The position numbers were made by a program, and so were the translations under genes. The notes beneath the pieces were generated by a model. The model searched no databases. It was not told the origin of the DNA and saw only the letters and a list, made by a program, of their open reading frames with translations. A DNA stretch of 64,000 nt from Nitrospirota bacterium (GTDB lineage: Bacteria > Nitrospirota > UBA9217), in NCBI GenBank assembly GCA_963818475.1, contig CAWFSF010000006.1, positions 192,001 to 256,000 of the forward strand, written 5' to 3'. Shown here piece after piece: positions 49,301 through 62,994 of the stretch; position 1 is the first letter of the stretch; each line of letters begins with the position of its first letter.

Positions 49301-51213
49301 GTTCGCAGTAACAACTGATTATCTCGCGGGTTCAAGTCCCGCCCAAGGAGTTGTCCGTACACCTTGGTAGCACGAGGGAGCGGCGTCTGAGCAATCAGAG
49401 GTCGTGAGTTCCCAAACGGCAAAGCTACAGGCCGCAGCGAAAGCGAACCTACACGTAGCCTCGTAACTTATTCGGAGATGCCGACCTTGTGGTCAAATGG
49501 GGAAGGCCGATGCGCGCTGATTCAGACAACGGAATCGATCTGTGCGATCTCCCGGGGTAGCAGGGGCGGCATGCAGCGGAAGATAAGCAGTCCAGTGCTG
49601 GAGACCCCATACAGTGATGTTAGAGGAACATCAACCGGTGCGTATAAGGAAACGAAAACGCACTGGGCTGTATCGGGAGTCGGAGGGGTCCATAGTATCG
49701 TTTGAAGGTATGGGACAACATAACCCTGCCCAAGAAAAGGGACCCTGCTTTGTTCACGCAACCGAAGGAGAGAGGATGAGGGGATTGCAGAGATGCTAAC
49801 AACCCCAGATACAATCAGGACACTCCAGAGGAAGCTCTACCGTAAGGCCAAGCAAGAACCGGCCTACCGCTTTTACGCGCTCTACGACAAGATACACCGG
49901 GCCGACATCCTCAGTCACGCCTACCATCTTGTCAGGGCCAACAAAGGAAGCGCCGGCATCGACGGCGTCACCTTCGAGGCCATAGAGACCGGAGAAGGGG
50001 TAATCGCCTTTTTGGCGGAGCTGCAAGAAGCACTGAAGAGCAAGACCTATGCACCAAACCCTGTAAAGCGCGTCATGATCCCCAAAGGAGACGGCACAGA
50101 GCGTCCCTTGGGAATCCCGACCATTAGGGACAGGGTGGCCCAGATGGCCGTAAAACTGGTCATCGAACCGATATTTGAAGCGGATTTTATAGACACCTCA
50201 TACGGATTCAGACCCAAGAAGTCGGCCCATGATGCAATCGAAGACATATCGTATGCCCTTAACTGCGGTTATACGGAAGTCATCGACGCCGATGTGTCCA
50301 GGTACTTCGACACCATTCCCCATGCCAAACTCATGGCCGTGGTCGCCGAGCGCATCGTTGACAGTGCGATTCTGCACATTATCCAGATGTGGCTCAAGGC
50401 CCCGGTTATGGAAGTGGACAAGGACGGAACGAAGCGCAACATCGGCGGCGGCAAGGCAAACACCAAAGGAACACCGCAGGGCGGTGTCATCTCGCCGCTC
50501 CTGGCCAATCTCTATCTGCACCTGTTAGATAGGATATGGCATAAGAAGAAGCTTCAGTATAGGCTCGAAGCGCGTCTTGTCCGGTATGCCGACGATTTTG
50601 TCGTGCTGTGCAGAAAGGGAACTGAGCAGCCGATGGCGGTTGTGCGCCGGGTGCTCGAACGACTGGGACTTGTACTCAATGAGAACAAGACCCGCATGGT
50701 GAACGCCAAGCAAGAAGGCTTCAACTTCCTTGGATTTGAACTTCGTATGGGGAAAAGTCGGAGAACGGGCAACCTTTACCCCCTTATACAACCGTCACGA
50801 AAAGCCCTGAAGAAGATCAAAGACAGCGTTACCGCTCTTACACACAGGCGGATGACGCCGAAGCCGCTTACTATGATAATCGAAGATATCAATACCGCCC
50901 TCCGGGGCTGGGTCGGGTACTTTCATTACCGCAATAGCAGCAAGGCGTTCAATCGTCTCAAGTTTCATGTGGAAGCGCGAGTGCGCACGCATCTGCGAAA
51001 GCGGCATAAGATCAAAAGCAGGGCAGCGGGGTTTACCAGGTTCACCAACAGGTCTTTGTACGAGAAGTATGGGCTCTATAAAGTGCCGACGACAGCGGGC
51101 TGGCTGAAGGCGCATGCCTTGCGGTGAAGAACATCGGAAAGCCGTGTGCGGGAAAACTGCATGCACGGTTTGATGAGGGAGGGCTGGTCAATACGACCAG
51201 CTCTCTACTCTAC
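49301..51213 (+). mobile_element. Group II intron
   Basis: 5' GTTCG; domain V AAGCCGTGTGCGGGAAAACTGCATGCACGGTTT; domain VI ending CTCTAC; removal restores a sequence matching 45637-45684. Confidence 0.9.
49793..51127 (+). CDS. ltrA: Group II intron reverse transcriptase/maturase, no endonuclease domain
   Basis: RPLGIPTIRDR, SYGFRP, GTPQGGVISPLLAN, RYADD, FLGF, RGWVGYF. Confidence 0.95.
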   Translation: MLTTPDTIRTLQRKLYRKAKQEPAYRFYALYDKIHRADILSHAYHLVRANKGSAGIDGVTFEAIETGEGVIAFLAELQEALKSKTYAPNPVKRVMIPKGDGTERPLGIPTIRDRVAQMAVKLVIEPIFEADFIDTSYGFRPKKSAHDAIEDISYALNCGYTEVIDADVSRYFDTIPHAKLMAVVAERIVDSAILHIIQMWLKAPVMEVDKDGTKRNIGGGKANTKGTPQGGVISPLLANLYLHLLDRIWHKKKLQYRLEARLVRYADDFVVLCRKGTEQPMAVVRRVLERLGLVLNENKTRMVNAKQEGFNFLGFELRMGKSRRTGNLYPLIQPSRKALKKIKDSVTALTHRRMTPKPLTMIIEDINTALRGWVGYFHYRNSSKAFNRLKFHVEARVRTHLRKRHKIKSRAAGFTRFTNRSLYEKYGLYKVPTTAGWLKAHALR

Positions 51214-51334: not shown

Positions 51335-51784
51335 TCAGGGACTCTCCGACTGTGGCTTGCTGCGGTGCGACATGAACATAAAATCGACATAGCCTTTTAT
51401 TTGAACCTGGCCTTCCGTTGAGACCTGACGGTATTTTCTGATCAACTGAATTTCTGGCTGGTGCAGGATTTTTTCGAGATACTGGCACTGTTCCTGGGAA
51501 AGCGGCCACTTCCGCTTTTTTTCGTAGCCGTTGACCATGGGAATAAGAAAATTATCACTACTGACCCCCGAGAGTTTTTCTCTGTGGGCAGCGAGTATGA
51601 CTAAATTCTGGTCCAGCCCCAGACCCTTCGCAATTTTGATGAGCGTGTTATCCTTCGGCATTCGACCGGCGTTTAAAAAAGTCCTCAGGCTTTCTGTTGA
51701 CACTCCTGCCTTTTTTGCCGCCGCCTTAAACGTTGTAATCCCCTGCGCTTCGATCGTTTGCTGAACCAGCTCTCTTAACTTCAT
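51335..51784 (-). CDS. XRE-like HTH transcriptional regulator
   Basis: FKAAAKKAGVSTESL...PKDNTLIKIAKGLGL. Confidence 0.7.
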   Translation of the reverse strand: MKLRELVQQTIEAQGITTFKAAAKKAGVSTESLRTFLNAGRMPKDNTLIKIAKGLGLDQNLVILAAHREKLSGVSSDNFLIPMVNGYEKKRKWPLSQEQCQYLEKILHQPEIQLIRKYRQVSTEGQVQIKGYVDFMFMSHRSKPQSESP

Positions 51785-52104
51785 GGTTCCCTCTCGCCGA
51801 TAGTTTTTTTTTGCATGCCGATAGGACCGAACTCGATCGCGGTGACATCTCCGTCGAGTGCCTTGATAATCTGGTAGCTTTTAAATCGTTCGCGGAAGGC
51901 AACTTGCTGGCGCTCATTCATCAGAGAAATCCCAAGTCTGATATGATCAATTTCCCGTTGACGCCACTTGTACTGGCGGTTACGGCTTTCCTTGTCATTG
52001 ACGAGCCATGTCACCGTTGAATAAATGCAGCTCGCTTCTTCCTTTTTATTCATGAATACCTCATAATTTGTCCCGCCTATACGCCTGATCTGAGAATATG
52101 TCAA
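51781..52104 (-). CDS. Hypothetical protein (start uncertain)
   Basis: ORF with ATGA overlap to the HTH gene. Confidence 0.45.
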   Translation of the reverse strand: MTYSQIRRIGGTNYEVFMNKKEEASCIYSTVTWLVNDKESRNRQYKWRQREIDHIRLGISLMNERQQVAFRERFKSYQIIKALDGDVTAIEFGPIGMQKKTIGEREP

Positions 52105-52209
52105 CGATAGCGATGGGGTTTCCCGTAGAAACAGTTAAGTGCAATAAGCTCGTGATCGTAACAATGAAGTATAAAACTTACGATACCATTCGCGAAATGA
52201 CCCCACAAC

Positions 52210-52225
52210 CTACCCGAACGGGTAG
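52210..52225. promoter_or_regulatory. Perfect 7-2-7 palindrome, candidate LuxR/NarL-family operator
   Basis: CTACCCG-AA-CGGGTAG, 23 bp upstream of TATAAT at 52249-52254. Confidence 0.6.
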
Positions 52226-52441
52226 TATCCATTTATGCCTTTATTCCGTATAATCACTGTGAACGTGATCCTATAAATACAGGTACGTCATGGTCGTTAG
52301 CATAATTTCTGCGGAATGGCCTTCACATCACTACCTTCCTTGTTCTTTGACATAGCTGTCTGGTCGGCGTGCAACCAGCTTGGGGCCTGTACGTCGAAGC
52401 CGGTCACAACATACGTAGTCAATCAATAGAAAATAAATTTC

Positions 52442-52469
52442 TTGACAATAAAATATACACTCGTATACT
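52442..52469 (+). promoter_or_regulatory. Sigma70-type promoter upstream of TonB receptor gene
   Basis: TTGACA-16bp-TATACT. Confidence 0.6.
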
Positions 52470-52601
52470 TTTGCCACTTTAAACCGTCGCTTGTGGTCGT
52501 TTAACAAAATTGCAAATAAAGCAGGTGATCATGATGACTTCACGTTTTTCACATCGTCGCCATATCGCTACGACAGACGCATCGACCCTGAGGGCAAAGA
52601 A

Positions 52602-54477
52602 ATGATGCTACTTATCCGCCTGTCCTACATCTTCTTTATCTTTGTCAACTTGATGGTCCTGTTCCGATCCTCCGCCTCCGCCCAGTCGACCGAAGAGAAA
52701 GACTTTCTCCTGATGTACTTCAAGGAAGAGGAACTGGTCGTGGAAGCGCCGACGCGGGCAAGAAAATCCCTGGCCCAGACCGCGGAGAACGTGTCCGTGG
52801 TCACGGCCGACGAGATCAGGTTCATGAACGCCCATACAGCAGCCGAGGTGCTGAACACGGTGACGGGCGTGCAGGTCTTCCTGACGGGAGGTCCCGGCAG
52901 CAGCGCGACGGCGTTCATCCAGGGCTCGGGGAGCCGGCATGTGGCAGTCTTCATCGACGGCGTCCCGCTGAACAACCTTTCCGATAACGCGGCCGAGCTC
53001 GGGTCGCTCCCGGTCCAGAATATCGAGAAGATCGAGATCATCAAGGGACCGGCGTCGTCCGCCTGGGGATCAGCTCTCGGCGGTGTGATCAACATCATTA
53101 CCAAGGCGGGGCAGGACGAGGGGTTCGGCGGCGTGCTGTCGGCTTCATCAGGAAAGCATGATACGGGTGACTTCCGGGCCGAGGCATCGGGTAAAAAGGT
53201 GGGCGTGGGCTATTACCTTACTGCCGGCCGACTGCAAACCGACGGCTTTCGGCCACACAACGACTTCTCGGGGAACAATGCCTACGCGAAGCTGAGCTAT
53301 GATATCACGGGCGCTACGTCAGTAATTGCCACGGTGAGCTATGACAAGGTCGCGCGAGGGACTTGCTGAACTGCCCGATTTCGGCATCTTCGTGAACGAC
53401 GACATCAAGGCCGTGCGGTCCACCGTAACGTTTCGATCGTCCCTCTCCGAGAACACTGACCTGCATTTTACTGCCTGGCACCTGCGCCAGCACAGCGACT
53501 TCAGCAACATGCTCATCTCTTCGGGAGCGGAACTTTCAAAGGACCGTTATCTCGATGATGGATACGGCGGGAGCCTCAAGCTGACATGGAAAAGGCAGCA
53601 TCACAACATCGTTCTCGGCGGCGACTATGACTCCAGGATGTTGGACTCGAACGCCATCGCCGATAACAGGCAGGGGATCGATAAACAGGCTGCTTTTGTA
53701 AATGATACGATGTCTTTCGGCAGCCTGACTATCACCCCGGGCCTGCGGTATGATAAAACAGACACGAACGGTGATTTCACGAGCCCGAGCCTCGGAATGA
53801 TCTACCGGATCACGGAGACCACCTTACTGCGTGCGTATGCTGCCCGGGGATTCAGTGTGCCGGCGCTTGCGGGCACCTATGGAGATAATCTCTTTCATGT
53901 TTCCAATCCCGATCTGAAGATGGAAAATGTCAAGTCCTACCAGATAGGCGCGGAAACCACTGTTGAGAAGTATCTCTGGGTCAAAGTGTCGGGATTCAGG
54001 CACGATCTTGACGATGTTCTCGAGAACGTGGCGCTTTCCCCTATATCGTTCATTACGTTGAACACCGGCAGGGAAAGACGGGAAGGGTTGGAGGTCGAGC
54101 TCCGAACAGCTCCTGTCTACCATACAACGCTTAATGCCGGCGCGTCGTTCATCAGCGCGACGGACAGGGACACGGGCCAGACGATCAAGAGCGTGGCACA
54201 AAGGACCTATGACATAGGCTTGCAGTACGATGGAGACTCGTTCAAGGCGCTGGTGAAGGGGCATTATATCTACTGGAACACGGACAAGTTCTTTGAAGGG
54301 AAGTACGACGATTTTATCGTGGATGCCCATATTATGAAGACCCTGTATACGCGGAATGAGCACTCGCTTGAAGCCTTTGCCGATGTTCACAATCTCTTCG
54401 ATGACGAGCAATATCCAGCGGGTATATATAAGAACCCCGGGAGATGGTTCGAGGCAGGGGTTAGATATGTTTTTTGA
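52602..54477 (+). CDS. TonB-dependent outer-membrane receptor (one frameshift)
   Basis: Plug NVSVVTADEI..VFIDGVP..IEKIEIIKGPAS..GGVINIITK; barrel ending HNLFD..GRWFEAGVRYVF. Confidence 0.93.
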
Positions 54478-54522
54478 TCCATAACACAAAGAAGTCAACT
54501 ACTCTAGGGGGGAGGAAAGAGC

Positions 54523-54624
54523 ATGAAAAACCGGATTGTTGTGCTGAATAAGGGTGTTGAGAAAAAGCAGGTGGTAGAAGGACTCTGCTGTATGGGAGCA
54601 TACATCCCTTATCTGTGGATGTAG
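54523..54624 (+). CDS. Putative RiPP precursor peptide, geopeptide-like, 33 aa (not in ORF track)
   Basis: GGAGG RBS; MKNRIVVLNKGVEKKQVVEGLCCMGAYIPYLWM; CC motif; directly upstream of radical SAM gene. Confidence 0.85.
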   Translation: MKNRIVVLNKGVEKKQVVEGLCCMGAYIPYLWM

Positions 54625-54635
54625 GCTGAGCTTTC

Positions 54636-54666
54636 GAGGGAGAGCGCTCCGCTCTCCCTCTTTTTT
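54636..54666 (+). terminator. Intrinsic terminator between precursor and maturase
   Basis: GAGGGAGAGC-GCTCC-GCTCTCCCTC followed by T6. Confidence 0.88.
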
Positions 54667-54702
54667 ATTTCTCATGAAGAAAGGCATCATTCACGGCTGC
54701 TG

Positions 54703-55992
54703 ATGAAATTATCTCGTTATTCCAAGACCTATCCTTCCCCGGAAGACCCTGATTCGGTCATTCTGTTCTCCACCAAGCGCGCCTCGACGGTTCTCGTCCC
54801 GAAGGGCCTCCTTGCGGACATCGAGGCGGGCAGGCTTTCCGGGGAGGAGCAGGCAGATCTTGCGGAGCTGGGCCTCGTGGCGCGCAGCGACGAGGAGGAA
54901 CGGCAGGAGCTGCTTTCCTATATCCAGGACATGAACGCCCTGGACCGGTCCATGAAGTTCATCGTCGTCCTGAACCTGGACTGCAACCTCGCCTGCCGCT
55001 ACTGCTTCGAAGGCGTCCGGAAAGGAAAACACTATCTTTCCGACGAGGCGGCGGCACGGTTCGTCGATTTCGTCATGACCCGCGACTACACGAACAAGGA
55101 TGATATCAAGATCGTCTTCTATGGCGGCGAGCCGCTCCTGTCCGTGGACCGGATCGCCGGCATCTCGGAACAGATCAAGACCTTTGCCGAAGGCAGGGGG
55201 ATGCGGTATGTCTTTTCCCTCGTGACCAACGGCGTGTTGTTGACCCCACAGGTAGTGAAGCGTCTCCAGCCCCTTGGCTTGAGAAGCGCCAAAGTGACGC
55301 TGGATGGACCGAAAGAGGTCCACGATGCGTTCCGGCCCTTCAGGAACGGCGCGGGGTCTTTCGACACGATCATGCGGAACGTGGGCGACGTGTCCAGTCT
55401 GATCCGTGTCCAGATCGGCGGCAACTTCACTCAGGATAACTATCGCCAATTCCCCCGCCTTCTGGACCTCCTGATGGAGAGGGGACTCGGCCCGGCCCGG
55501 ATCGCGGCGGTCAAGTTCGATCCCGTGGTCAACGAAAGCAGCGAGTTTGCCCTCCCGGACTTCCACGACGGGTGTGCTTCCATGGATGAGCCTTGGGTCG
55601 CCATGGCCTCGTTGCAGCTGCGCGAGGAAGTGCTGAAACGCGGGTACCAGACACCGAAGATCATGCCCTCGCCCTGCCTGATGGAACATGACGACAGCTT
55701 TGTCGTGAACTATGACGGCATCCTGTACAAGTGCCCCGGCCTGATCGGCAGGCAAGGCTGCCGCGCCGGCGATCTGGCGAGCGGACCGGGGGAATGCCGC
55801 GCGTCCCACGGGCTCGACGACTGGAAGAACGACGACTGCCTGGCTTGTGCCTATCTGCCGCTCTGCTTCGGGGGCTGCAAATACCTCAAGCTCGCCAGAG
55901 AGAACAGCATGAGGGGCGTTAATTGCCAAAAAAAGTATTTCGACCGGATCCTCGCGGCACTGGTGGCCCAGGACATCCGGTACGGGCTGTAG
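54703..55992 (+). CDS. Radical SAM/SPASM peptide maturase, geopeptide-maturase-like
   Basis: CNLACRYC, FYGGEP, SPASM C..G.LYKC..CLACAYLPLCFGGC..C; RRE-sized N-terminus. Confidence 0.9.
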   Translation: MKLSRYSKTYPSPEDPDSVILFSTKRASTVLVPKGLLADIEAGRLSGEEQADLAELGLVARSDEEERQELLSYIQDMNALDRSMKFIVVLNLDCNLACRYCFEGVRKGKHYLSDEAAARFVDFVMTRDYTNKDDIKIVFYGGEPLLSVDRIAGISEQIKTFAEGRGMRYVFSLVTNGVLLTPQVVKRLQPLGLRSAKVTLDGPKEVHDAFRPFRNGAGSFDTIMRNVGDVSSLIRVQIGGNFTQDNYRQFPRLLDLLMERGLGPARIAAVKFDPVVNESSEFALPDFHDGCASMDEPWVAMASLQLREEVLKRGYQTPKIMPSPCLMEHDDSFVVNYDGILYKCPGLIGRQGCRAGDLASGPGECRASHGLDDWKNDDCLACAYLPLCFGGCKYLKLARENSMRGVNCQKKYFDRILAALVAQDIRYGL

Positions 55993-56005
55993 TCCCGGTC
56001 ACTCC

Positions 56006-56938
56006 ATGATTACGCGCTTCTCTTTCATAGTAAAACCCGACAAGGCCTTCCTGGTCTTCCTCGTCCTGCTGGCCGCGCTTGCGGTCTTTGTCCTTGCGTG
56101 CCCTCTTCCTGCATCGTCCGCATGCGAGACAACTGTCGTCGTGAGCGCTGACCTAAAGCCCTATCGGGAGGTCCTCCAGGGTATCCGCGATGCTTCCGTC
56201 TGCACCGTGCGGGAGGTGACGTTGCGCGACGGCGACGCCCTGGAACGGGTGCGGCGGACATCGCCCAATGCCGTGGTCGCCATCGGGACCGACGCTTTCC
56301 GGACGGTCCGGCCGTTCCGGGACGCGCCGGTCGTCCATGTCATGGTGATCCCCTCCGTGGTCGAGCGCTCCCCGTCGGCAAACCTGTCGGGAGTGAGCAT
56401 GAGCATCGCTCCCGAGGCATGGCTGTCGGCGATCAAGCGCATGTTCCCCGGCGCGAAGCGGATCGGGCTGCTCTTCGATCCCCGGAATACGGGCCCCTTC
56501 GTCTCCGAGGCGGTGCTAGCCGCTCAGGCTGCCGGGCTGACGCTGAAAACGGCGGAGGTCAGTGGGGCAGATGAGGTTCCGAAGGCGCTGAACTCTCTCC
56601 GCGACTCGGTTGACGTGCTCTGGATGCTGCCGGATCCCGCAGTGACGTCGGCGCCGGTATTCGAGTATCTTGTCCGCTTCTCCATCCAGCATCGCATTCC
56701 CATCATGACCTTTTCAGAAAAATACCTGGAACTGGGCGCCGTGGCGTCGCTGGACGTGGACCCCTATGACATGGGCGTCCAGGCCGCGGAAATGGCGGCC
56801 CGGCTCGCGAGGGGCGGGGACGGGCCCGTGCGCGTCTTCGCGCGGAAAACGAAGCTCTCGTTCAACCGGAGCGCGGCGGGGAAGATGGGGGTCGTGATCG
56901 GCGCGGCGGTTTCTGAGAGGGGCCTTGCCGATGAATAG
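56006..56938 (+). CDS. Periplasmic ABC-type substrate-binding protein without transporter genes
   Basis: Signal peptide; KRIGLLFDP, VDVLWMLPD, MGVQAAEMA. Confidence 0.85.
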   Translation: MITRFSFIVKPDKAFLVFLVLLAALAVFVLACPLPASSACETTVVVSADLKPYREVLQGIRDASVCTVREVTLRDGDALERVRRTSPNAVVAIGTDAFRTVRPFRDAPVVHVMVIPSVVERSPSANLSGVSMSIAPEAWLSAIKRMFPGAKRIGLLFDPRNTGPFVSEAVLAAQAAGLTLKTAEVSGADEVPKALNSLRDSVDVLWMLPDPAVTSAPVFEYLVRFSIQHRIPIMTFSEKYLELGAVASLDVDPYDMGVQAAEMAARLARGGDGPVRVFARKTKLSFNRSAAGKMGVVIGAAVSERGLADE

Positions 56939-58856
56939 CTTCAGAATGGTCCTCAAGGAGCGATTCGGACTCAAGGTCATTACGGCATTCATTATCGTCA
57001 TCGCTGCGTCCTTCACCCTCTATACGGTCGTCTGGGCGGTCTATGAGATCGGCAGGCTCAGGCACAAGCTCGAGGACCAGGGTATCATGCTGACATCGCT
57101 CCTCGCGCGGGGGGCCGTGGTGGGCATCTTCACGGAGAACGAGGCGGAGCTCAAGCGGTCGGCGGCGGATGTCCTGAAGCTGCCCGACGTGGTGTCCGTG
57201 TCGCTGTTCAATGCAGAAGGACGGATGCTCTACCGGGGCAGCAGAATGGTCGGACGGCCCGGTCCCGGGACGTTGCCGGAGCGAAATGCACCGGGTCCGC
57301 CGGCTGGCACGGAGTTGGAGATCGCGGACCAGGCGGACGCGGTCAGTATCTCCCGGCCAGTCTTCAGCGCGTCTCTAGCCGATACGGATGAAACGCTGTA
57401 TTTCGGCTCGTCGACCGGTCTCGCGCGGGAGCGGATGATCGGTCATGTCCTGATCGTGATGAGCAAGGACAGCTACCGCAGCGAGATCGTCGCGCTCGTG
57501 GGAAGGAATTTGGGATTGATGGCGCTGTTCATCGCGGTAAGCGGCATTGTCGTGTGGGGCGCGGTCCGCAAGGTCACGCGTCCGCTCGAGCGGCTGACCG
57601 AGAGCGTAAGGGACTTCGAACGGGGGGTGCCGGTGGAGCCGGCGCCAGTCGAGACCGGAGACGAAATCGGAAGGCTGGCATCGGCATTCAACGACATGGT
57701 CGCGGCACGGCGGAAAACGGAGCTGTCCCTGCGCGAGAGCGAGGAGCGCTACCGGCGGCTTGTCGAACTCTCCCCGGACGCGATCTACGTGCAGCTTGAG
57801 GGAAGGATCGTCTTCATCAATAATGCGGGCGCGAGACTGCTGGGGGTGTCCGCTCCCGCGGACATCCTGGACCGGAAGGTCCTGGACCGCATTCATGAGG
57901 AAGACCACGAGACCGTCGTGAAACGGGCACTACAGGTCGAGGAAGAGGGGCGCGTCGTCACCTTCCTCCCGGTCAGGTATCTCCAGCCCGGCGGGACGGT
58001 CGTGGATGCCGAAGTGGCCGCCGCGCCCTTCCCGTTCCAGGGCAAGAGCGCCGTGCTGGTCATGGCCCGCGATATCACGGAGCGCAAGAGCCTGGAGGAG
58101 CTGGTCAGAGCATACCAGCGGGAACTGCATTCCGTGGAAAACGCAATGTCCTCGCTGGAATCGCAGATCGAGGAACGGGAGCGGCATCTTATTGCAGCGG
58201 ACCTGCATGATCATGTCGGCCAGAACCTGGTGGCGTCGCTGTTCAAATTGGGGCTCATGCAAAAGGGGATTTCTGCGCCCGGCGCGCTCAGGCACCTGGA
58301 GGAGATCCGCGATCTTCTCGGCCAGACCATCCAGTATACGAGGTCGTTGACTGTCGAACTCAGCCCGCCGGTCCTGTCGGAGATCGGTTTCAAGGCCGCG
58401 GTGGAGTCCCTGGCGGAGGGAATCGAAGCGGCTTACGGAATAACGGTCGCCGTCGAGGATGACGGCAGGTCCGATCTGATCGGCGAAAACGTCCGGAACC
58501 CGCTCTTCCGGTGCGTGCGCGAGCTGCTCATGAACGCCGTCAAACATTCCCGGGCGAGCGGCGTCGTGGTCTCCCTGGGAAGGGACAACGACCGGATAAG
58601 AATTACCGTTGTTGATAACGGGACGGGGTTCGATGCATCGGCGGTAACCGGGAAAAAGTCGGGGTTCGGGCTGTTCTCTGTCAGGGAGCGGATAAAGAGG
58701 CTGGGCGGCTCGTGCAGGATCGAAAGCCGGCCGGGGTCCGGAACAAAGGTTGTCCTGGAGGCGCCCTTGAAAGAGGACGTACAAGATAAAAATCTCGGGA
58801 GGGGCGCACCGGAAACAGGACAGGTCTTCGACAGGATAACAGGATCGACAGGATAA
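56925..58856 (+). CDS. Membrane sensor histidine kinase (HAMP-PAS-HisKA_3)
   Basis: Two TMs, DEIGRLASAFN, ESEERYR..PDAI, ERHLIAADLHD, DNGTGF, GFGL. Confidence 0.93.
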   Translation: MPMNSFRMVLKERFGLKVITAFIIVIAASFTLYTVVWAVYEIGRLRHKLEDQGIMLTSLLARGAVVGIFTENEAELKRSAADVLKLPDVVSVSLFNAEGRMLYRGSRMVGRPGPGTLPERNAPGPPAGTELEIADQADAVSISRPVFSASLADTDETLYFGSSTGLARERMIGHVLIVMSKDSYRSEIVALVGRNLGLMALFIAVSGIVVWGAVRKVTRPLERLTESVRDFERGVPVEPAPVETGDEIGRLASAFNDMVAARRKTELSLRESEERYRRLVELSPDAIYVQLEGRIVFINNAGARLLGVSAPADILDRKVLDRIHEEDHETVVKRALQVEEEGRVVTFLPVRYLQPGGTVVDAEVAAAPFPFQGKSAVLVMARDITERKSLEELVRAYQRELHSVENAMSSLESQIEERERHLIAADLHDHVGQNLVASLFKLGLMQKGISAPGALRHLEEIRDLLGQTIQYTRSLTVELSPPVLSEIGFKAAVESLAEGIEAAYGITVAVEDDGRSDLIGENVRNPLFRCVRELLMNAVKHSRASGVVVSLGRDNDRIRITVVDNGTGFDASAVTGKKSGFGLFSVRERIKRLGGSCRIESRPGSGTKVVLEAPLKEDVQDKNLGRGAPETGQVFDRITGSTG

Positions 58857-58931
58857 ATCCGTATCCGCTTTTTTTCCGGTAGCCCTGTCAAAAAACTCGT
58901 TGGTTCCGATTTGTAACCGAAAAGGGGTGGC

Positions 58932-59765
58932 ATGAGCATCCGGATACTTCTTGCTGACGATCATAAACTGCTGCGCGAGGGGCTGCGCTCGTTGATATCC
59001 GAACAGTCGGACATGTCGGTGGTAGCGGAGGCCGAGGACGGCAGGTCCGCTGTTCAACTGGCAGCCAGACTATCGCCGGATATTGTGATCATGGACATTT
59101 CGATGCCGGGAATGAACGGTATCGAAGCTACACGACTGATCGTGGCGGAAAATCCCGCCGTGAAGATCATGGCCCTATCAATGCATCTGGACCGGCGCAT
59201 GGTGCTGGAAATGTTCAAAGCCGGCGCATCCGGCTATCTCCTGAAGGAATGCGCTTTTGATGAGGTGGTCCATGCCGTGCAGCTCGTTGCGTCGAAAGGC
59301 ATCTATCTCAGTCCGAGGGTCGCAGACGTTCTTCTCAAGGACTATATTCACGGCGTCCAGAAGGGAGAACTGGCACCGTTATCCGAAGTGCCGAAGCAGG
59401 AGCGGGCAGTTCTTCACCTGCTGGAGGATGGCAAAGATATGAAAGATATCGTTTCCGCTCTTCATATAAGCATCAAGAATGCCGAGTCCTGCCGCAGGCA
59501 GATGATCCTTGATCGCATCCTGCCGTATCTTCTCCGCGCACAGAGTGAAACTGCGGCTGGATTTGCCGTCTCACTGACGCCGCGGGAACGGGAAATCCTA
59601 ATCTGGGTCAAGGACGGCAAGAGCACCGGTGAGATCGCATCCATTCTCACAATAAGCCAGGACACTGTGAAATTTCATATGAAAAACGTATTCCAGAAAC
59701 TCAATGCCATCAGCAGGTCGCAGGCCATCGCCATCGCGATCGAGAACAAGCTCATAGAGTCTTGA
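58932..59765 (+). CDS. NarL-type response regulator with two tandem LuxR-type HTH domains
   Basis: LLADDH, IMDISMP, GYLLK; HTH1 QERAVLHLLEDGK; HTH2 LTPREREILIWVKDGKS..TVKFH. Confidence 0.9.
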   Translation: MSIRILLADDHKLLREGLRSLISEQSDMSVVAEAEDGRSAVQLAARLSPDIVIMDISMPGMNGIEATRLIVAENPAVKIMALSMHLDRRMVLEMFKAGASGYLLKECAFDEVVHAVQLVASKGIYLSPRVADVLLKDYIHGVQKGELAPLSEVPKQERAVLHLLEDGKDMKDIVSALHISIKNAESCRRQMILDRILPYLLRAQSETAAGFAVSLTPREREILIWVKDGKSTGEIASILTISQDTVKFHMKNVFQKLNAISRSQAIAIAIENKLIES

Positions 59766-59937
59766 TCGCGATGGATCCGTATCCGCCGAACAGATCAAGG
59801 CCCTGCCAGTAAGTGAAAAAGGGGATCTGCCTGTCCGCGAGAGGAGAGCATGTCCGGCATTAACACCTTGTTGAATAAGTCTTTACGAAATAGGCTGATT
59901 CGTCAACAGCTTGTTCATGCTCTCCGGGCCCCAAACA

Positions 59938-60435
59938 TCATTGAGCCTGTTCCGCCTGGACCGTTTGCGCCAGCGATATCTCTTCGGTGGAAAATACCTT
60001 GTCGATCTCAAGGACGATGATGAACCGGTCGTTCTGTTTTCCCATTCCCTGGATGAATTCCGTGTTCAGGCGCGCCCCGATCCGCGGCACCGGCTGGAGC
60101 GTGTCCGCATCCAGCTCGATCACTTCCTGCACGGAGTCTGCGAGGGCCCCGAGGATCGTGGTCTTCCCGTCCACCTCGATTTCCGCGATGATTACGCAGG
60201 TGTTCACCGATCTCTTCGTCACGGCCATGCCGAGCTTGAGCCCGAGGTCTACCACGGCTACCACACTTCCCCGCAGGTTGATCACTCCCCGCAGGAAGTC
60301 CGGCATCCGGGGCACCTTCGTCACGGTCGTGAAATCCAGCACTTCGCGGACCCTGGCGATGTCAAGGGCGAAAACCCCGTCGCCGAGCCCGAAGGTCAGA
60401 TACTGTTTCGTTGCTGTTATATCCGTTGTTGTCAT
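59938..60435 (-). CDS. cheW: Chemotaxis coupling protein CheW
   Basis: QYLTF, VREVL, GVINLRG, LADSVQEV. Confidence 0.95.
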   Translation of the reverse strand: MTTTDITATKQYLTFGLGDGVFALDIARVREVLDFTTVTKVPRMPDFLRGVINLRGSVVAVVDLGLKLGMAVTKRSVNTCVIIAEIEVDGKTTILGALADSVQEVIELDADTLQPVPRIGARLNTEFIQGMGKQNDRFIIVLEIDKVFSTEEISLAQTVQAEQAQ

Positions 60436-60487
60436 CGGTTCCTTTCTGCGGGTCAGAGCCGCCCCCAGGCTCCCGGTCCGTCCACTC

Positions 60488-62059
60488 CTAGAATTTCTCG
60501 AACTCCCTGTCCCGGGGGTCGCCGTTCCCGCCCGACCCATGCCGACCCATGTCGAGCGCCGCGCCGGAAGGCCGGGTCGCGCGATGCGCCGCCCCGGAAG
60601 CGGCGAGGCGCGCGATGGGGGTCAGGACGGCGGGAGCGGCCAGTGTTCGGGGTGCCGCGCTTTTCATCGCTGCGCGTGTGCTGTCGATCGTGAAGAATCC
60701 CACTGTTTCCAGGAGCTGATCCGACTGGGATGAAAGTTCCTGTGCCGTCGAGGCCATCTCCTCGGCCGATCCCGCATTCTGTTGGATCACCTTGTTCAAC
60801 TGCTGGATCGAACTGTTGATCTGGTCCGCTCCCGAGGCCTGCTCCTTGCTGGACGCGCTGATTTCCTGCACGAGTTCGGATGTTTTTTGGATATCTGGGA
60901 CGAGCCTGTTCAGCATTGCCCCGGCGTTCTCTGCCACATCGACGCTCGAGCTGGACAATTTGCCGATCTCTCCGGCAGCCACCTGGCTCCGTTCCGCGAG
61001 CTTCCGCACCTCGGCAGCCACCACGGCGAACCCCTTGCCGTGCTCGCCGGCGCGCGCTGCCTCGATCGCGGCATTCAATGCCAGCAGGTTGGTCTGCCGT
61101 GCGATCTCCTCGATTACGGAGATCTTCCCGGCAATGTCCTTCATGGCCTTAACCGCCTCGGACACGGCCTTGCCGCTCTCCAGTGCGTCGTTAGCGCTTT
61201 TTCGTGCGATCGTTTCAGTCGCTACGGCGTTGTCGGCATTCTGCCTGATCGTTGCATGCATCTCCTCGATCGATGCGGAAGCTTCTTCAGCCGAGGCCGC
61301 TTGTTCAGTCGTGCCCTGTGACATCTGCTCGGACCCGGACGATAGTTGTCTGCTGCCGAAGGCAACATTATCGGCCGCGTTCTTCACATCCGACACGACG
61401 CCTTGCAGTTTCTGCACCATGGTTCCGATGGAAATGAAGAGCTTCCCTATCTCGTCACCTGACTCGGCCGTGATGGAACGGGTCAGGTCGCCGTTGGCCA
61501 CCTGCGCGACCGCTGCGTTCAGGCGGTCGATGGGCTTCAGCGCAAGGTATCGGAAGAGCTGGTAAACGATGAGCGATACCAGGAGCATGGTCCCGATGGA
61601 CAGACCGGCGAGGATTGCCTGCGACTGCCGCAATGCGTTCCCGATGCTGGCCGTGGAATAGCCGATCCTGACCATACCGATCTTCTCGCTCTCTTGCTGG
61701 ATCGGACTGGAGAACTCTATGACGTTCGCCGTTGTCGACTCGGTCTGCCGATACTCCGTCAGCACCTTGTCTTCACGGTCCGTAACGGCAGCGAAGACGA
61801 TGTTTTTATCCCCGGCGCCGACGTACCGCACCTGGTTCTCCAGTGCGGCGAAGTTGAAGCTCAGAATCGGCTCAGCGGAAATCGCCGCCAGGATCCTCGC
61901 CACGTTCTCGCCCTTCCCGCTGAGCTCGTTCACGAGCACCCTCTTTTCATGGGCGTTGATGACGAGGCCCATGGCGGTGAAGATCAGCAGAAGGCCTAGC
62001 AGGATGCTCACCAGGAATTTTCTGGTGAGCGTCCAGTGGAACAGAAAACTGTTTGTCAT
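60488..62059 (-). CDS. Methyl-accepting chemotaxis protein
   Basis: Two TMs, [35 protein letters not shown]-terminal EFEKF pentapeptide. Confidence 0.96.
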
Positions 62060-62130
62060 GGTTTCATCTCCTTGTTCGCGCCGCCACCGTCCGCCGAAAC
62101 GGGGACCCGGGCCGCGACGCGGTTCGCGTC

Positions 62131-62994
62131 CTAGAGCGCCCCGGCTACCTTCGCGGCCTTCCGGAGCTCGTCGTACTCCTTGTCGATGATCGGGATAAAG
62201 CCGGTAAGCCGTGCCGGACCGAGGATATTCTCGTTCTGCGGGTCGTTCGGCTTCAGCTTGAGCAGGGCGGTCCGTATCTTTGCCGCCATCTCCGGCTTCA
62301 GCTTCGGCGTGGCGAAGAATGGCCAGTTGGGGAAATAGTCGGTATAGCCCACGATCCTGATCTGGGAAATATCCAGCTTGCCCTTCATCTTTTCCAGCTC
62401 GTCTTCCCGGATGCCGCCTGCATCGGCAGTCTTGTTGAATACGGCCGTGGTGATGTTCTCATGCTTCTTCGCAAAGGGAAGGAGAGAAATGTCCTTGTTG
62501 ACGTCGAACCCCGCCTTGCTCAAAAGCAGCATCTGAAAGATGTACCCCGCGGCGGAATCCTTGTCCATGAAGACGAACTTCTTTCCTTTCAGGTCCTGGA
62601 TCTTGTTGAAGCCGCTGTCCTTTCTCACGATAATGATCCCGCGGAACCGGGTGCCGCTCTTCACCTCCGATGACAGGGCGAGGGGTTCAATGTTGCTCAT
62701 CTCCTTCGCCTGGACATAGATGAGCGGATTTGCGAACCCCACATCCATCTGTCCCGTTTTTACGGCGTCCTTGAAAGCATTGAAGTCCTTGGGGATCACG
62801 ATGGTAACCTTTTCCCCGGTTTCCCTGCTCAAGTACTCGGCAAGGGGACTATACATGGCCTGCAGCTCAGGCGCGCTGAGGCGGGGCAGCGTCCCGAACT
62901 TGATCTCCGCCGAAGCAACGCCTGCCCCGAACGCGATGAACGCCGCGACAACAAGCACAACCGTCATTACCGTCTTCATGAAACTCCTCTTCAT
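62131..62994 (-). CDS. Phosphonate/phosphite-type substrate-binding protein (PhnD family)
   Basis: Signal peptide; [33 protein letters not shown]. Confidence 0.85.

What the first reader, a model, noticed from the sequence alone, without database searches (positions are those of the whole stretch)
52210..59765. Candidate RiPP-based signalling circuit in a diderm: TonB receptor, peptide, rSAM/SPASM, SBP, kinase, regulator
Seen: six co-oriented genes. The precursor MKNRIVVLNKGVEKKQVVEG-LCCMGAYIPYLWM is missed by the ORF track. The binding protein has no permease or ATPase and overlaps the kinase gene. No immunity or toxin-export gene is visible. Established: SPASM radical SAM enzymes cross-link Cys-containing peptides, and geopeptide precursor and maturase families were defined computationally in Geobacter; I know of no function for them. 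Inference: the modified peptide crosses the outer membrane via the receptor, binds the SBP, activates the kinase and induces its own locus, resembling Gram-positive peptide quorum sensing. The exporter and protease are not in the window.
Basis: partly seen in the sequence, partly recalled or inferred. Interest (0 to 1): 0.85.

Follow-up and report, generated by a model that had tools for sequence, protein, structure and literature searches.

The report
Modified-peptide uptake-and-sensing gene cluster
A gene cluster that makes a small cross-linked peptide sits beside an outer-membrane importer and a periplasmic sensor, and since about eighty genomes keep this arrangement, the cell probably takes up and senses its own peptide, whose role is untested.

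Summary
The six co-oriented genes are real. They are a TonB-dependent receptor (TBDR), a 33-aa peptide with an invariant Cys-Cys, a radical SAM/SPASM maturase, an orphan binding protein (SBP), a histidine kinase and a LuxR-type regulator. The maturase is a firm member of NCBIfam TIGR04280 (562.9 bits, cut-off 400). The peptide scores below the geopeptide precursor cut-off (13.8 vs 30). In this assembly a 1-base insertion splits the receptor gene.

The same parts recur in shuffled order in 86 maturase loci from two phyla. Among 26 cross-phylum loci with full flanks, 26 have the receptor and 26 the SBP. No other gene family is conserved around them.

Maturase-linked SBPs form their own clade. 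More distant receptor-SBP-sensor modules exist without any maturase.

A NarL-like palindrome sits in an activator position upstream of the operon. In this genome it otherwise occurs only at a nearby sulfotransferase/PAPS gene pair.

The make, import and sense logic is well supported by synteny. That the peptide is the ligand, is exported, or acts as a quorum signal rather than a metallophore is not shown. Peptide-receptor co-variation was not detected, and no exporter is encoded in the window. No publication on this system was found.

The parts
52210..52225 (+). Palindrome CTACCCGAACGGGTAG, a candidate operator for the LuxR/NarL-type regulator. It is centred about 43 nt upstream of the transcription start implied by the -10-like hexamer.
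   Evidence: Read. Conserved with the same spacing in L054 and L053. These three loci are the only ones among 43 oriented loci (772 kb) with TACC[CT]N4[AG]GGTA sites. G000 has three sites matching TACCCGNNYGGGTA, all within 12.2 kb.
52249..52254 (+). TATAAT, a -10-like hexamer without a good -35. Candidate activator-dependent distal promoter.
   Evidence: Sequence. CCGTATAAT / CCGTATATT is conserved 23 nt after the palindrome in L054 and L053. Inference only.
52442..52469 (+). Sigma-70-like proximal promoter, TTGACA-16-TATACT.
   Evidence: 11 of 12 consensus matches, the best site in 51700-60200. Conserved in L054.
52602..53369 (+). TonB-dependent receptor, N-terminal piece (signal-like segment and Plug). 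The frame ends after a 1-nt insertion near 53362.
   Evidence: PF07715 82.9 bits. Hydrophobic N-terminus. Frameshift relative to L054 and L053.
53341..54477 (+). TonB-dependent receptor, C-terminal piece (beta-barrel) in the other frame.
   Evidence: PF00593 126.9 bits. The two pieces cover residues 7-254 and 252-624 of the intact paralogue.
54523..54624 (+). Precursor peptide MKNRIVVLNKGVEKKQVVEGLCCMGAYIPYLWM (33 aa).
   Evidence: TIGR04229 13.8 bits, cut-off 30. A homologous CC peptide lies upstream of the maturase in 34 of 37 and 49 of 52 loci.
54636..54670 (+). GC-rich hairpin (11 bp, 8 GC) followed by TTTTTTATTT. Candidate terminator or attenuator between precursor and maturase.
   Evidence: A comparable hairpin occurs in 71 of 83 loci, against 22 of 415 control windows.
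54703..55992 (+). Radical SAM/SPASM peptide maturase (429 aa).
   Evidence: TIGR04280 562.9 bits, cut-off 400. The CxxxCxxC motif and seven SPASM cysteines are invariant in 34 sequences. Nearest solved structure is 5wgg.
56006..56938 (+). Orphan periplasmic binding protein (310 aa), PF04392 family.
   Evidence: PF04392 97.5 bits. One N-terminal hydrophobic segment. Falls in the maturase-linked SBP clade. No ABC partner genes.
56925..58856 (+). Sensor histidine kinase: TM, periplasmic sCache_4-like domain, TM, HAMP, PAS, HisKA_3, HATPase.
   Evidence: Two hydrophobic segments flank about 145 residues. The N-terminal 270 residues are the part conserved across loci.
58932..59765 (+). Response regulator: REC plus two tandem LuxR/GerE helix-turn-helix domains (277 aa).
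   Evidence: Internal repeat with E 3e-5.

Best explanation
The locus is a self-contained 'make, take up and sense' module for a ribosomal peptide.

Proposed steps:
1. The 33-aa precursor is bound through its conserved hydrophobic leader strand (I-[IV]-V-L-x-K-G).
2. The radical SAM/SPASM maturase modifies it at the invariant Cys-Cys, most likely by thioether cross-linking.
3. The product leaves the cell by a route not encoded here.
4. The dedicated TonB-dependent receptor pumps it back across the outer membrane.
5. The orphan binding protein captures it in the periplasm.
6. The loaded SBP docks on the periplasmic sCache-like domain of the kinase.
7. The kinase phosphorylates the LuxR/NarL-type regulator.
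8. The regulator binds the TACCCG-N2-CGGGTA palindrome, activates its own operon (positive feedback), and probably also controls a nearby sulfotransferase/PAPS gene pair.

A hairpin after the precursor gene keeps precursor transcripts in excess over maturase transcripts.

Shown: gene content, family membership and conserved linkage. Inferred: chemistry, export, ligand identity, docking and operator use. Whether the product is a density signal or a scavenging molecule stays open. I lean towards a signal.
For: Family: maturase TIGR04280 at 562.9 bits against a cut-off of 400, with the full rSAM and SPASM cysteine set. The nearest solved relative is 5wgg at 126 bits. The next-best NCBIfam matches are Cys-peptide maturases (CefB, TIGR04463, PapB).

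Linkage:
- In the window's phylum, 34 loci over the cut-off: receptor 32, SBP 28, kinase N-terminal domain 25.
- Of the 29 of these with at least 5 kb on both sides: 28, 25 and 23.
- In the cross-phylum scan, 52 loci with at least 39% identity: 46, 40 and 22.
- Of the 26 of these with full flanks: 26, 26 and 14.
- Gene order and strand differ between lineages while the parts stay.
- Clustering 1086 ORFs from 88 loci gave only maturase (81 loci), receptor (79), kinase (65), SBP (65), LuxR-type regulator (23) and NtrC-type regulator (18). No other family occurs in more than 7 loci.

Peptide: found in 34 of 37 and 49 of 52 loci. A hairpin follows it in 71 of 83 loci, against 22 of 415 controls.

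Sensor: all 26 sensors carry HAMP and HATPase, but the phosphotransfer module varies (17 HisKA, 8 HisKA_3, 10 hybrid). The shared part is the periplasmic module.

SBP tree: a 71-row clade (SH-aLRT 92) holds 63 of 64 maturase-linked SBPs. The label changes 6 times on the tree, against a shuffled mean of 18.1; 0 of 500 shuffles were as low.

Complex of SBP 40-310 with kinase 40-190: weak support.
- Median score 0.41; best of 3 controls 0.16.
- The mark was reached by 58 of 80 solved complexes and 2 of 110 mismatched pairs.
- At 0.60 or under, only 7 of those 80 solved complexes passed, as did both passing mismatches.
- The runs agree in at least 84% of contacts, and the partner's pLDDT is at least 73.
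- My own alignments were used, so these counts hold only roughly.

Operator: the palindrome is conserved in three orthologous loci at a fixed distance from a -10 hexamer. All three sites in G000 and all three in G230 lie at this locus or at the cysQ-sat/cysC promoter 10-13 kb away.

Three paralogous loci with different peptide tails occur in this one genome.
Against: - No exporter or leader protease is encoded in the window. A half-size efflux-type MFS follows the maturase in 9 of about 88 loci only, and the window's genome has no close homologue.
- No co-variation was found between the peptide tail and the receptor or SBP beyond shared ancestry. Partial Spearman was +0.11 (p 0.07) for the receptor and -0.11 (p 0.075) for the SBP, over 254 non-independent pairs.
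- Receptor-SBP-sensor modules exist without a maturase, so the trio does not need a peptide as such.
- The receptor gene is frameshifted here, and the two paralogous loci also carry frameshifts, so this copy may be inactive.
- The palindrome was found only in the window's orthologous group, not in other regulator groups.
- The genome-wide count of the pattern is no higher than that of a reversed-pattern control in G000 and G230. Only its position stands out.
- The complex score is weak.
- Nothing shows expression or modification.
Confidence: 0.5

Rival explanations
1. The product is a metal-scavenging peptide, a RiPP metallophore in the manner of methanobactin. It is secreted, loaded with a soft metal through the Cys-Cys region, re-imported by the receptor and handed to the periplasmic binding protein. 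The kinase senses the loaded form only to tune uptake.
For: The same gene logic fits: a RiPP plus a dedicated TonB receptor plus a periplasmic binding protein without an inner-membrane permease. CC was the criterion used to find the peptides; next to it come conserved small residues. No co-variation of the tail with receptor or SBP was seen, as expected if the metal centre rather than the tail is recognised. Precedents, both recalled from memory: methanobactin with MbnT and MbnE, and PfeS/PfeR sensing imported enterobactin.
Against: No Fur-box-like site was found upstream of the receptor genes: the best match was 6 or more mismatches of 19 in all 45 regions, like other intergenic regions. Only Fur was tested, and with a recalled consensus. 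No metal-homeostasis family is conserved among 88 loci. Thioether formation by the nearest enzyme relatives would use up the thiols (inference). The regulatory outputs vary between LuxR-type, NtrC-type and hybrid kinases, which is more usual for signalling modules.
Confidence: 0.2
2. Receptor, SBP and kinase sense an unrelated outside ligand (a nutrient or cofactor). The peptide and maturase are merely part of the regulated output and act inside the cell.
For: Homologous SBPs, often with TonB receptors and large membrane sensors, are common in genomes without any maturase. One family had 63 of 76 genomes with SBP-profile hits but 0 of 76 with the maturase. No exporter was found in most loci. 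No co-variation was seen.
Against: Those maturase-less modules fall outside the maturase-linked SBP clade, apart from a few likely losses. The receptor is the gene most tightly tied to the peptide and maturase: it is present in 28 of 29 and 26 of 26 loci with full flanks, and stays close through rearrangements. There is no cobalamin or other riboswitch. The receptor scores far below the BtuB cut-off (154.5 vs 599.7 for the intact orthologue).
Confidence: 0.12
3. The TonB-dependent protein exports the peptide across the outer membrane instead of importing it, and the SBP-kinase pair monitors the periplasmic pool.
For: No other outer-membrane export component is encoded. A TonB-dependent transporter needed for secreting a protein has been reported in Myxococcus (recalled, not checked here).
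Against: Import is the rule for this family. The Plug and barrel are ordinary. Loci with only the receptor, SBP and kinase exist in genomes without the maturase (L085-L087), and that fits uptake of a foreign product better.
Confidence: 0.05
4. The peptide is a bacteriocin or microcin, and the locus is a toxin cluster.
For: It is a small Cys-containing modified peptide made by a SPASM enzyme, and some microcins use TonB receptors (recalled).
Against: No immunity, export or lysis gene family is conserved in 88 loci. A producer would not normally carry the uptake receptor next to its own toxin. A sensor system is the constant companion.
Confidence: 0.03

Closest known systems
NCBIfam 'geopeptide' system (TIGR04280 maturase, TIGR04229 precursor), defined computationally and with no known function
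   Same: The maturase passes the curated cut-off. A small CC peptide lies directly upstream. The Geotalea toluenoxydans precursor in a homologous locus passes TIGR04229 (40.5 bits).
   Different: The window's precursor has a basic leader and scores 13.8 bits (cut-off 30). By the record titles of its relatives the organism belongs to Nitrospirota, not Geobacter. The five-part module with receptor, SBP and kinase is worked out here. I found no paper on it.
Thioether-forming SPASM maturases (SCIFF maturase in PDB 5wgg, CteB by recall; PapB ranthipeptide maturase)
   Same: Best structural and profile relatives. Same cysteine architecture. The leader carries a short hydrophobic strand of the kind such enzymes bind (recalled).
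   Different: Scores are far below those families' cut-offs (PapB 128 vs 340; SCIFF 89.5 vs 425). The substrate has one adjacent Cys pair rather than spaced cysteines. The chemistry is untested.
Methanobactin operons (RiPP chalkophore with TonB receptor MbnT and periplasmic binding protein MbnE); recalled
   Same: A ribosomal peptide product encoded beside its own TonB receptor and a periplasmic binding protein.
   Different: The maturation enzymes differ (no radical SAM). Regulation is by sigma and anti-sigma factors rather than an SBP-kinase pair. Copper binding is shown there; nothing is shown here.
SBP-dependent sensor kinases (LuxP-LuxQ for AI-2, TorT-TorS) and the PfeS/PfeR-PfeA enterobactin sensing loop; recalled
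   Same: A periplasmic binding protein, or an imported ligand, switches a membrane kinase, which induces the uptake receptor.
   Different: Those ligands are not ribosomal peptides. The SBP here is PF04392, whose three solved members bind aromatic amino acids (Table 1 of PMC10443332, passage seen).
Gram-positive peptide quorum sensing (Agr, ComX/ComP, RaS-RiPP loci under Shp/Rgg); recalled, with listings seen
   Same: A small modified peptide is encoded with its maturase and a two-component sensor. There are signs of self-induction and several variants per genome.
   Different: Here there is an outer membrane to cross, a TonB receptor and an SBP in between, and no dedicated exporter or protease in the locus.
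RaxX / RaxST / RaxPQ / RaxHR of Xanthomonas (a sulfated ribosomal peptide with PAPS synthesis genes and a two-component system); recalled
   Same: The candidate operator also lies between a sulfotransferase gene (PF13469) and cysQ plus ATP-sulfurylase/APS-kinase genes 4.6 kb downstream of the regulator. The peptide tail has two Tyr.
   Different: There is no evidence that the peptide is sulfated. The link holds only in the window's close relatives.

Membership tests
TIGR04280 geopeptide radical SAM maturase | Whole-protein HMM score at or above the curated cut-off (400 bits) | tested here: met
   562.9 bits over model positions 1-427 of 428.
TIGR04280 geopeptide radical SAM maturase | Radical SAM CxxxCxxC motif and the seven-Cys SPASM motif | tested here: met
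   C94, C98 and C101, plus C325, C344, C379, C382, C388, C392 and C408, are invariant in 34 aligned sequences.
TIGR04280 geopeptide radical SAM maturase | Catalytic modification of the neighbouring peptide | not testable with these tools
   Needs co-expression and mass spectrometry.
TIGR04229 geopeptide precursor | HMM score at or above 30 bits | tested here: not met
   13.8 bits, E 0.04. The genome-wide scan did not recover it. Geobacter-type peptides from homologous loci score 40.5, 27.1, 20.4, 11, 0, 0 and 0 bits, so the model is narrow.
TIGR04229 geopeptide precursor | Short ORF directly upstream of the maturase with a hydrophobic leader strand, a Gly and a CC motif near the C-terminus | tested here: met
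TonB-dependent receptor (Pfam Plug + TonB_dep_Rec_b-barrel) | Plug and 22-strand barrel domains in one polypeptide | tested here: inconclusive
   Both domains are present, but in two frames because of a 1-nt insertion. Whether this is a mutation or an assembly error could not be settled.
BtuB vitamin B12 receptor (TIGR01779) | Score at or above 599.7 bits; a cobalamin riboswitch is usual | tested here: not met
   127.2 and 46.4 bits for the two pieces. 154.5 bits for the intact orthologue. No Rfam match in 51500-60300.
PF04392 ABC-transporter substrate-binding protein | Pfam gathering score | tested here: met
   97.5 bits against 25.9.
PF04392 ABC-transporter substrate-binding protein | Adjacent ABC permease and ATPase genes (a working transporter); TrpX equivalog score of 390 | tested here: not met
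   No such genes lie next to any of the four PF04392 genes of the genome, and none forms a conserved family in 88 loci. TrpX scores 76 bits.
NarX/NarL-type two-component system | HisKA_3 + HATPase kinase, and REC + GerE regulator | tested here: met
   No equivalog cut-off is reached (NarL 154.5 vs 250; MctR 190 vs 300).
Peptide quorum-sensing circuit | Dedicated export (and processing) of the peptide | tested here: not met
   None is in the window. A half-MFS follows the maturase in only 9 of about 88 loci.
Peptide quorum-sensing circuit | The receptor senses the cell's own peptide, and the locus induces itself | tested here: inconclusive
   Support comes from synteny, the SBP clade, a weak complex score and an operator in an activator position. 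No binding or expression data exist.
RiPP metallophore (methanobactin-like) | Metal-responsive regulation or metal-handling genes in the locus | tested here: not met
   No Fur-like box (only Fur was tested, with a recalled consensus). No conserved metal gene family.

The most novel reading that the evidence does not exclude
This is a peptide autoinducer system of diderm anaerobes. The proposal is that a thioether-linked ribosomal peptide is released, actively re-imported by its own TonB receptor, read by an orphan binding protein that switches a kinase, and amplified by self-induction. A single genome would carry several orthogonal channels. In this lineage the circuit would also control a sulfation module that may modify the peptide's tyrosines.
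Probability: 0.3. Interest if true: 0.85.

Novelty: new variant of a known kind. Interest (0 to 1): 0.68.

Why it matters
Peptide signalling is textbook biology for Gram-positive bacteria but nearly unknown in bacteria with an outer membrane. This module couples a ribosomal peptide and its maturase to a TonB receptor, an orphan binding protein and a kinase. It occurs in roughly one in ten sampled genomes of the window's phylum and about one in fifteen of the Geobacter phylum (43 of 401 and 26 of 401). These groups matter in sediments, groundwater and metal cycling.

If the peptide is the ligand, the module would show how a peptide cue gets past the outer membrane. It would also give a function to a family that has stood as 'hypothetical equivalog' in NCBIfam. 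If the peptide turns out to be a metallophore, that would be a second class of ribosomal metal scavengers. Either way, culturable Geobacter relatives carry the locus (L139), so the hypothesis can be tested directly.

Tried and rejected
- Cobalamin receptor reading: rejected. There is no riboswitch or other Rfam match in 51500-60300, and BtuB models score far below their cut-off.
- Bacteriocin reading: rejected for lack of immunity and export genes.
- Genome-wide scan with the TIGR04229 model: it did not recover the three peptides.
- Peptide-receptor co-variation: no signal.
- Fur boxes upstream of the receptor genes: none better than 6 mismatches of 19.
- Shared palindromes upstream of the receptor in other regulator groups: none.
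- Frameshift in the receptor:
  - rpoB and rpoC are intact, so the assembly is not broken everywhere.
  - The junctions in the three loci are mostly not in homopolymers.
  - The same-genus genome has a chemoreceptor gene in five pieces.
  - Mutation and assembly error could not be told apart.
- Public runs: no RNA holder is listed. The best DNA holder has 0.17 of the words. Contigs of four runs were laid, and no listed piece settled the base at about 53362.
- The C-terminal 296 residues fused to the maturase in L118: no Pfam family.
- Literature:
  - 'geopeptide' gave 0 papers.
  - TIGR04280 and TIGR04229 had 0 occurrences.
  - PF04392 gave 6 papers, none on signalling modules of this kind by their listings; passages of PMC10443332 were read.
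  - The radical SAM + TonB receptor + precursor + kinase + RiPP search gave 21 papers, none on this system by title and abstract.
  - The SPASM + TonB + SBP search led to one paper whose passages I read (PMC12114271). It concerns an unrelated system.
  - Supplementary files were not consulted. Subscription journals are not in the library, so a description there cannot be excluded.

Full report
WHAT IS IN THE WINDOW

Six genes lie on the + strand between 52491 and 59765.

The first is a TonB-dependent receptor, and it is in two overlapping frames. Frame one runs from ATG 52602 to 53369 and carries a hydrophobic signal-like start and a Plug domain. Frame two is 53341-54477 and carries the beta-barrel. 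The intact 624-aa orthologues in a same-genus genome (L054) and a same-family genome (L053) show that the window has one extra base at about 53362.

It has a strong ribosome-binding site and is followed by an 11-bp GC-rich hairpin with a T run at 54636-54670.

Then come:
- a radical SAM/SPASM enzyme (54703-55992);
- a PF04392 binding protein (56006-56938);
- a kinase that overlaps the binding-protein gene by 8 or 14 nt (to 58856);
- a response regulator (58932-59765).

The kinase has two hydrophobic segments around a domain of about 145 residues with a weak sCache_4 match. After these come HAMP, PAS, HisKA_3 and HATPase. The binding protein has a single N-terminal hydrophobic segment. The maturase and regulator have none.

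FAMILIES

The maturase is a clear member of NCBIfam TIGR04280, 'geopeptide radical SAM maturase' (562.9 bits, cut-off 400). It has the CxxxCxxC motif and all seven SPASM cysteines, which are invariant in 34 aligned relatives. Its nearest solved relative is 5wgg (126 bits). From recall this is the thioether-forming SCIFF maturase CteB. The next NCBIfam matches are other Cys-peptide maturases.

The peptide matches the 22-position precursor model TIGR04229 only weakly (13.8 bits, cut-off 30). That model is narrow. Seven Geobacter-type peptides from homologous loci score 40.5, 27.1, 20.4, 11, 0, 0 and 0 bits.

The receptor reaches no curated cut-off; BtuB-type models score best, at 154.5 bits against 599.7. 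The binding protein is PF04392 (97.5 bits) but not a TrpX equivalog (76 vs 390).

THREE COPIES IN ONE GENOME, ALL WITH BREAKS

The genome holds three such loci.

| Locus | Position | Peptide | State |
|---|---|---|---|
| A | the window | MKNRIVVLNKGVEKKQVVEGLCCMGAYIPYLWM | receptor split |
| B | C6:853049-859568 | MKNRIIVLKKGVDKKGVVSGGCCAMAFIPIR | receptor and maturase intact; binding protein and kinase split |
| C | C2:280592-286407 | MLKRITVVKRGVGKFGGATIGCCIAGSGQNKK | receptor and maturase split |

rpoB and rpoC are intact, and the junctions are mostly not in homopolymers. Related long assemblies also show broken genes. I cannot say whether these breaks are mutations or consensus errors.

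DISTRIBUTION AND SYNTENY

Record titles of close relatives name Nitrospirota MAGs. The maturase passes its cut-off in 43 of 401 sampled genomes of the window's phylum and in 26 of 401 of the phylum of a Geobacter MAG.

I fetched 40 neighbourhoods. I obtained 80 more across all species representatives.

| Set | Loci | Receptor | Binding protein | Kinase N-terminal domain |
|---|---|---|---|---|
| Window's phylum, over the cut-off | 34 | 32 | 28 | 25 |
| of these, at least 5 kb on both sides | 29 | 28 | 25 | 23 |
| Cross-phylum, at least 39% identity (two duplicates of the first set dropped; further overlap possible) | 52 | 46 | 40 | 22 |
| of these, full flanks | 26 | 26 | 26 | 14 |

Where the kinase N-terminal domain was not detected, there is usually a more distant sensor of about 650 aa next to the SBP.

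The order differs between lineages:
- receptor-peptide-maturase-SBP-kinase-regulator;
- the kinase-SBP pair divergent from receptor-peptide-maturase;
- the SBP-receptor pair divergent from peptide-maturase.

Parts that stay together through such shuffling are functionally tied.

Clustering 1086 ORFs from 88 loci found no further family in more than 7 loci. The conserved module is therefore these five parts plus a regulator.

THE PEPTIDE FAMILY

A small ORF with CC near its end lies just upstream of the maturase in 34 of 37 loci of the first set plus own genome. One of the three exceptions, L051, has a single-Cys variant. In the second set it is found in 49 of 52 loci. The three misses there have the contig ending at the maturase.

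CC was my search criterion, so its invariance is by construction. The independent features are as follows.
- A hydrophobic strand sits at -17 to -14 before the CC.
- Gly is common at -12 or -11.
- Small residues (G, A or S) follow at +3 and +4.
- Pro is frequent at +7 and Arg at +9.
- The median length from CC to the end is 11 residues.

Leaders are basic in Nitrospirota, acidic in Geobacter-type loci, and long Lys/Ala/Thr-rich in a subset. A hairpin of at least 7 bp with at least 5 GC pairs follows the stop codon in 71 of 83 loci, against 22 of 415 random windows from the same loci. In 48 of the 83 it also has a T-rich tail.

All 26 sensors examined have HAMP and HATPase. The phosphotransfer module varies: 17 have HisKA, 8 have HisKA_3 and 10 have a receiver domain. 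Seventeen show sCache_4. The shared part is therefore the periplasmic module that sits next to the SBP.

A profile of the SBPs hits 209 of 401 genomes of the phylum at E 1e-20 or better. Scores of about 330 bits and above lie at maturase loci. A second tier of 200-320 bits lies in genomes without the maturase. One family, for example, had SBP hits in 63 of 76 genomes and the maturase in 0 of 76.

I fetched twenty such places. They show several contexts:
- SBP plus a sensor of about 770 aa, often with distant TonB receptors;
- three receptor-SBP-kinase trios with no maturase in the genome (L085-L087);
- one SBP-kinase pair alone (L095).

No CC peptide was seen in any of the twenty. The window's own genome has a fourth PF04392 gene, at C2:392757-393701. 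It overlaps the start of a long ORF whose start is hydrophobic (seen by eye, not tested).

In a tree of 84 SBPs, a clade of 71 rows (SH-aLRT 92) holds 63 of the 64 maturase-linked rows. It also holds 6 maturase-less rows, one row at a contig end and one row from a low-scoring maturase locus (L072). Nine maturase-less SBPs form a separate clade. The label changes 6 times on the tree, against a shuffled mean of 18.1, and 0 of 500 shuffles were as low.

But those trios belong to other clades, plus a few apparent losses that look like receiver-only loci. The architecture is generic, and this clade of it is tied to the peptide.

DOCKING

A complex prediction of SBP residues 40-310 with kinase residues 40-190 gave 'weak support'.
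- Median score 0.41; best of three controls 0.16.
- The mark was reached by 58 of 80 solved complexes and 2 of 110 mismatched pairs.
- At 0.60 or under, only 7 of those 80 solved complexes passed, as did both passing mismatches.
- The runs agree in at least 84% of contacts, and the partner's pLDDT is at least 73.
- My own alignments were used, so the counts hold only roughly.

REGULATION

The best sigma-70-like site (11 of 12) is at 52442-52469.

Further upstream, CTACCCGAACGGGTAG (52210-52225) is followed after 23 nt by TATAAT (52249-52254). This places the palindrome about 43 nt before the implied start, an activator position. Both elements and their spacing are conserved in L054 and L053.

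Among 43 oriented loci (772 kb), only these three carry TACC[CT]N4[AG]GGTA sites.

G000 has three sites matching TACCCGNNYGGGTA. One is this palindrome. The other two are a tandem pair at C6:256394 and 256410, about 400 nt beyond the window's end. That pair lies between a sulfotransferase gene (PF13469) and a cysQ-like gene followed by a fused ATP-sulfurylase/APS-kinase gene.

The same-genus genome G230 has the same three sites and no others. G091 has eight distinct sites, four of them on the locus contig, including a tandem pair upstream of cysQ.

The genome-wide count is not above that of a reversed-pattern control in G000 and G230. What stands out is the position.

The site resembles the inverted heptamer pairs bound by NarL-type regulators (recalled). 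The regulator here is NarL/LuxR-type, with an unusual second helix-turn-helix. Self-induction is thus plausible for this lineage. No shared palindrome was found in other regulator groups.

SIGNAL OR SCAVENGER?

Three tests were tried.
1. Fur-like boxes upstream of the receptor genes: none better than 6 mismatches of 19 in 45 regions, much like other intergenic regions.
2. Co-variation of the peptide tail with the receptor or SBP after removing maturase divergence: rho +0.11 (p 0.07) and -0.11 (p 0.075) over 254 non-independent pairs, which is no signal.
3. Export: a half-size MFS protein of about 188 aa with efflux-type matches follows, and often overlaps, the maturase gene in 9 loci from both phyla. 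There is no close homologue in the window's genome.

None of these decides the question. The variable regulatory output, the several divergent copies per genome and the receiver-only loci lean towards signalling. The invariant CC and the lack of tail co-variation lean towards a recognised modified centre, as in a metallophore or cofactor.

MECHANISM AND STANDING

The best reading (0.5) has five steps. The cell makes a cross-linked CC peptide. The product is released by an unknown route. The dedicated receptor imports it into the periplasm. The SBP binds it. The SBP then switches the kinase, with self-induction in this lineage.

The rivals are a metallophore (0.2), the peptide as output of an unrelated sensing trio (0.12), outer-membrane export by the receptor (0.05) and a bacteriocin (0.03).

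The gene families are known by name only. I found no paper on them. The combination of a ribosomal peptide with a TonB receptor, an orphan SBP and a kinase has no characterised counterpart that I know of. I therefore rate it a new variant of known kinds.

The copy in this window may be inactive if the frameshift is real.

Noticed in passing
window 63178-64000 and beyond (G000:C6:255178-260297; L178): A sulfotransferase gene (PF13469) lies divergent from a cysQ-like gene, a fused ATP-sulfurylase/APS-kinase gene and a chromate-transporter-family gene. Two tandem TACCCGTATGGGTA boxes sit in the shared promoter region. These are the only other sites of the locus's palindrome type in the genome. 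The same layout occurs in G230, and tandem boxes lie upstream of cysQ in G091.
   Followed up: partly
window 59938-62994 (- strand): CheW, a HAMP-containing chemoreceptor and a phosphonate-type periplasmic binding protein (PF12974) with no transporter genes. This is a second orphan binding protein next to a membrane sensor. The group is syntenic in L053 and L054.
   Followed up: partly
window 58932-59765: The response regulator carries two tandem LuxR/GerE helix-turn-helix domains (277 aa, against about 215 aa in related loci). The two repeats match each other with E 3e-5.
   Followed up: partly
G000:C6:853049-859568 and G000:C2:280592-286407: Two paralogous loci with different peptide tails. 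Frameshifts split the SBP and kinase in one, and the receptor and maturase in the other. Together with the window's split receptor, every copy in this genome has at least one broken gene.
   Followed up: partly
L038, L041, L057, L065, L100, L110, L112, L118 (and part of L108): A half-size MFS protein (about 188 aa, six-helix length, efflux-type matches) directly follows and often overlaps the maturase gene. It is a candidate exporter present in a minority of loci only.
   Followed up: partly
L118:1341-2228, and open frames of 711-735 aa in G699, G604 and G613: The maturase is fused to a C-terminal extension of about 290 residues with no Pfam match. It contains a DDFID stretch.
   Followed up: partly
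L042, L048, L058, L060-L062, L069, L076, L101, L104, L140, L143: A subset of precursors has long Lys/Ala/Thr-rich, histone-H1-like leaders instead of the short basic leader. They keep a (S/K)KG motif and the CC core.
   Followed up: no
L085, L086, L087 (G244, G031, G217) and L095 (G197): Receptor-SBP-kinase trios, or an SBP-kinase pair, lie within or next to the maturase-linked SBP clade in genomes with no maturase match. They may be receiver-only loci.
   Followed up: partly
window 49793-51127: A group II intron reverse transcriptase/maturase (RVT_1 + GIIM) lies just upstream of the locus. Between them are an XRE-type HTH gene (51335-51784, -) and a 107-aa ORF with no family (51781-52104, -).
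   Followed up: no
G000:C2:390754-393701: The genome's fourth PF04392 gene overlaps the start of a long ORF with a hydrophobic start. It has no receptor or maturase nearby, so SBP-sensor pairing is a wider habit of this SBP family.
   Followed up: no
L149, L151, L152, L155, L159, L162, L167, L168: Maturases only 24-33% identical, from MAGs titled Spirochaetaceae/Spirochaetales, Planctomycetota, Omnitrophota and Auribacterota (L159 is titled only 'uncultured bacterium'), also have small CC peptides upstream. Some have TonB receptors or kinases nearby, so the theme may reach well beyond the named family.
   Followed up: no
L177: A Methanosaeta contig carries seven tandem radical SAM/SPASM genes distantly related to the maturase.
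   Followed up: no
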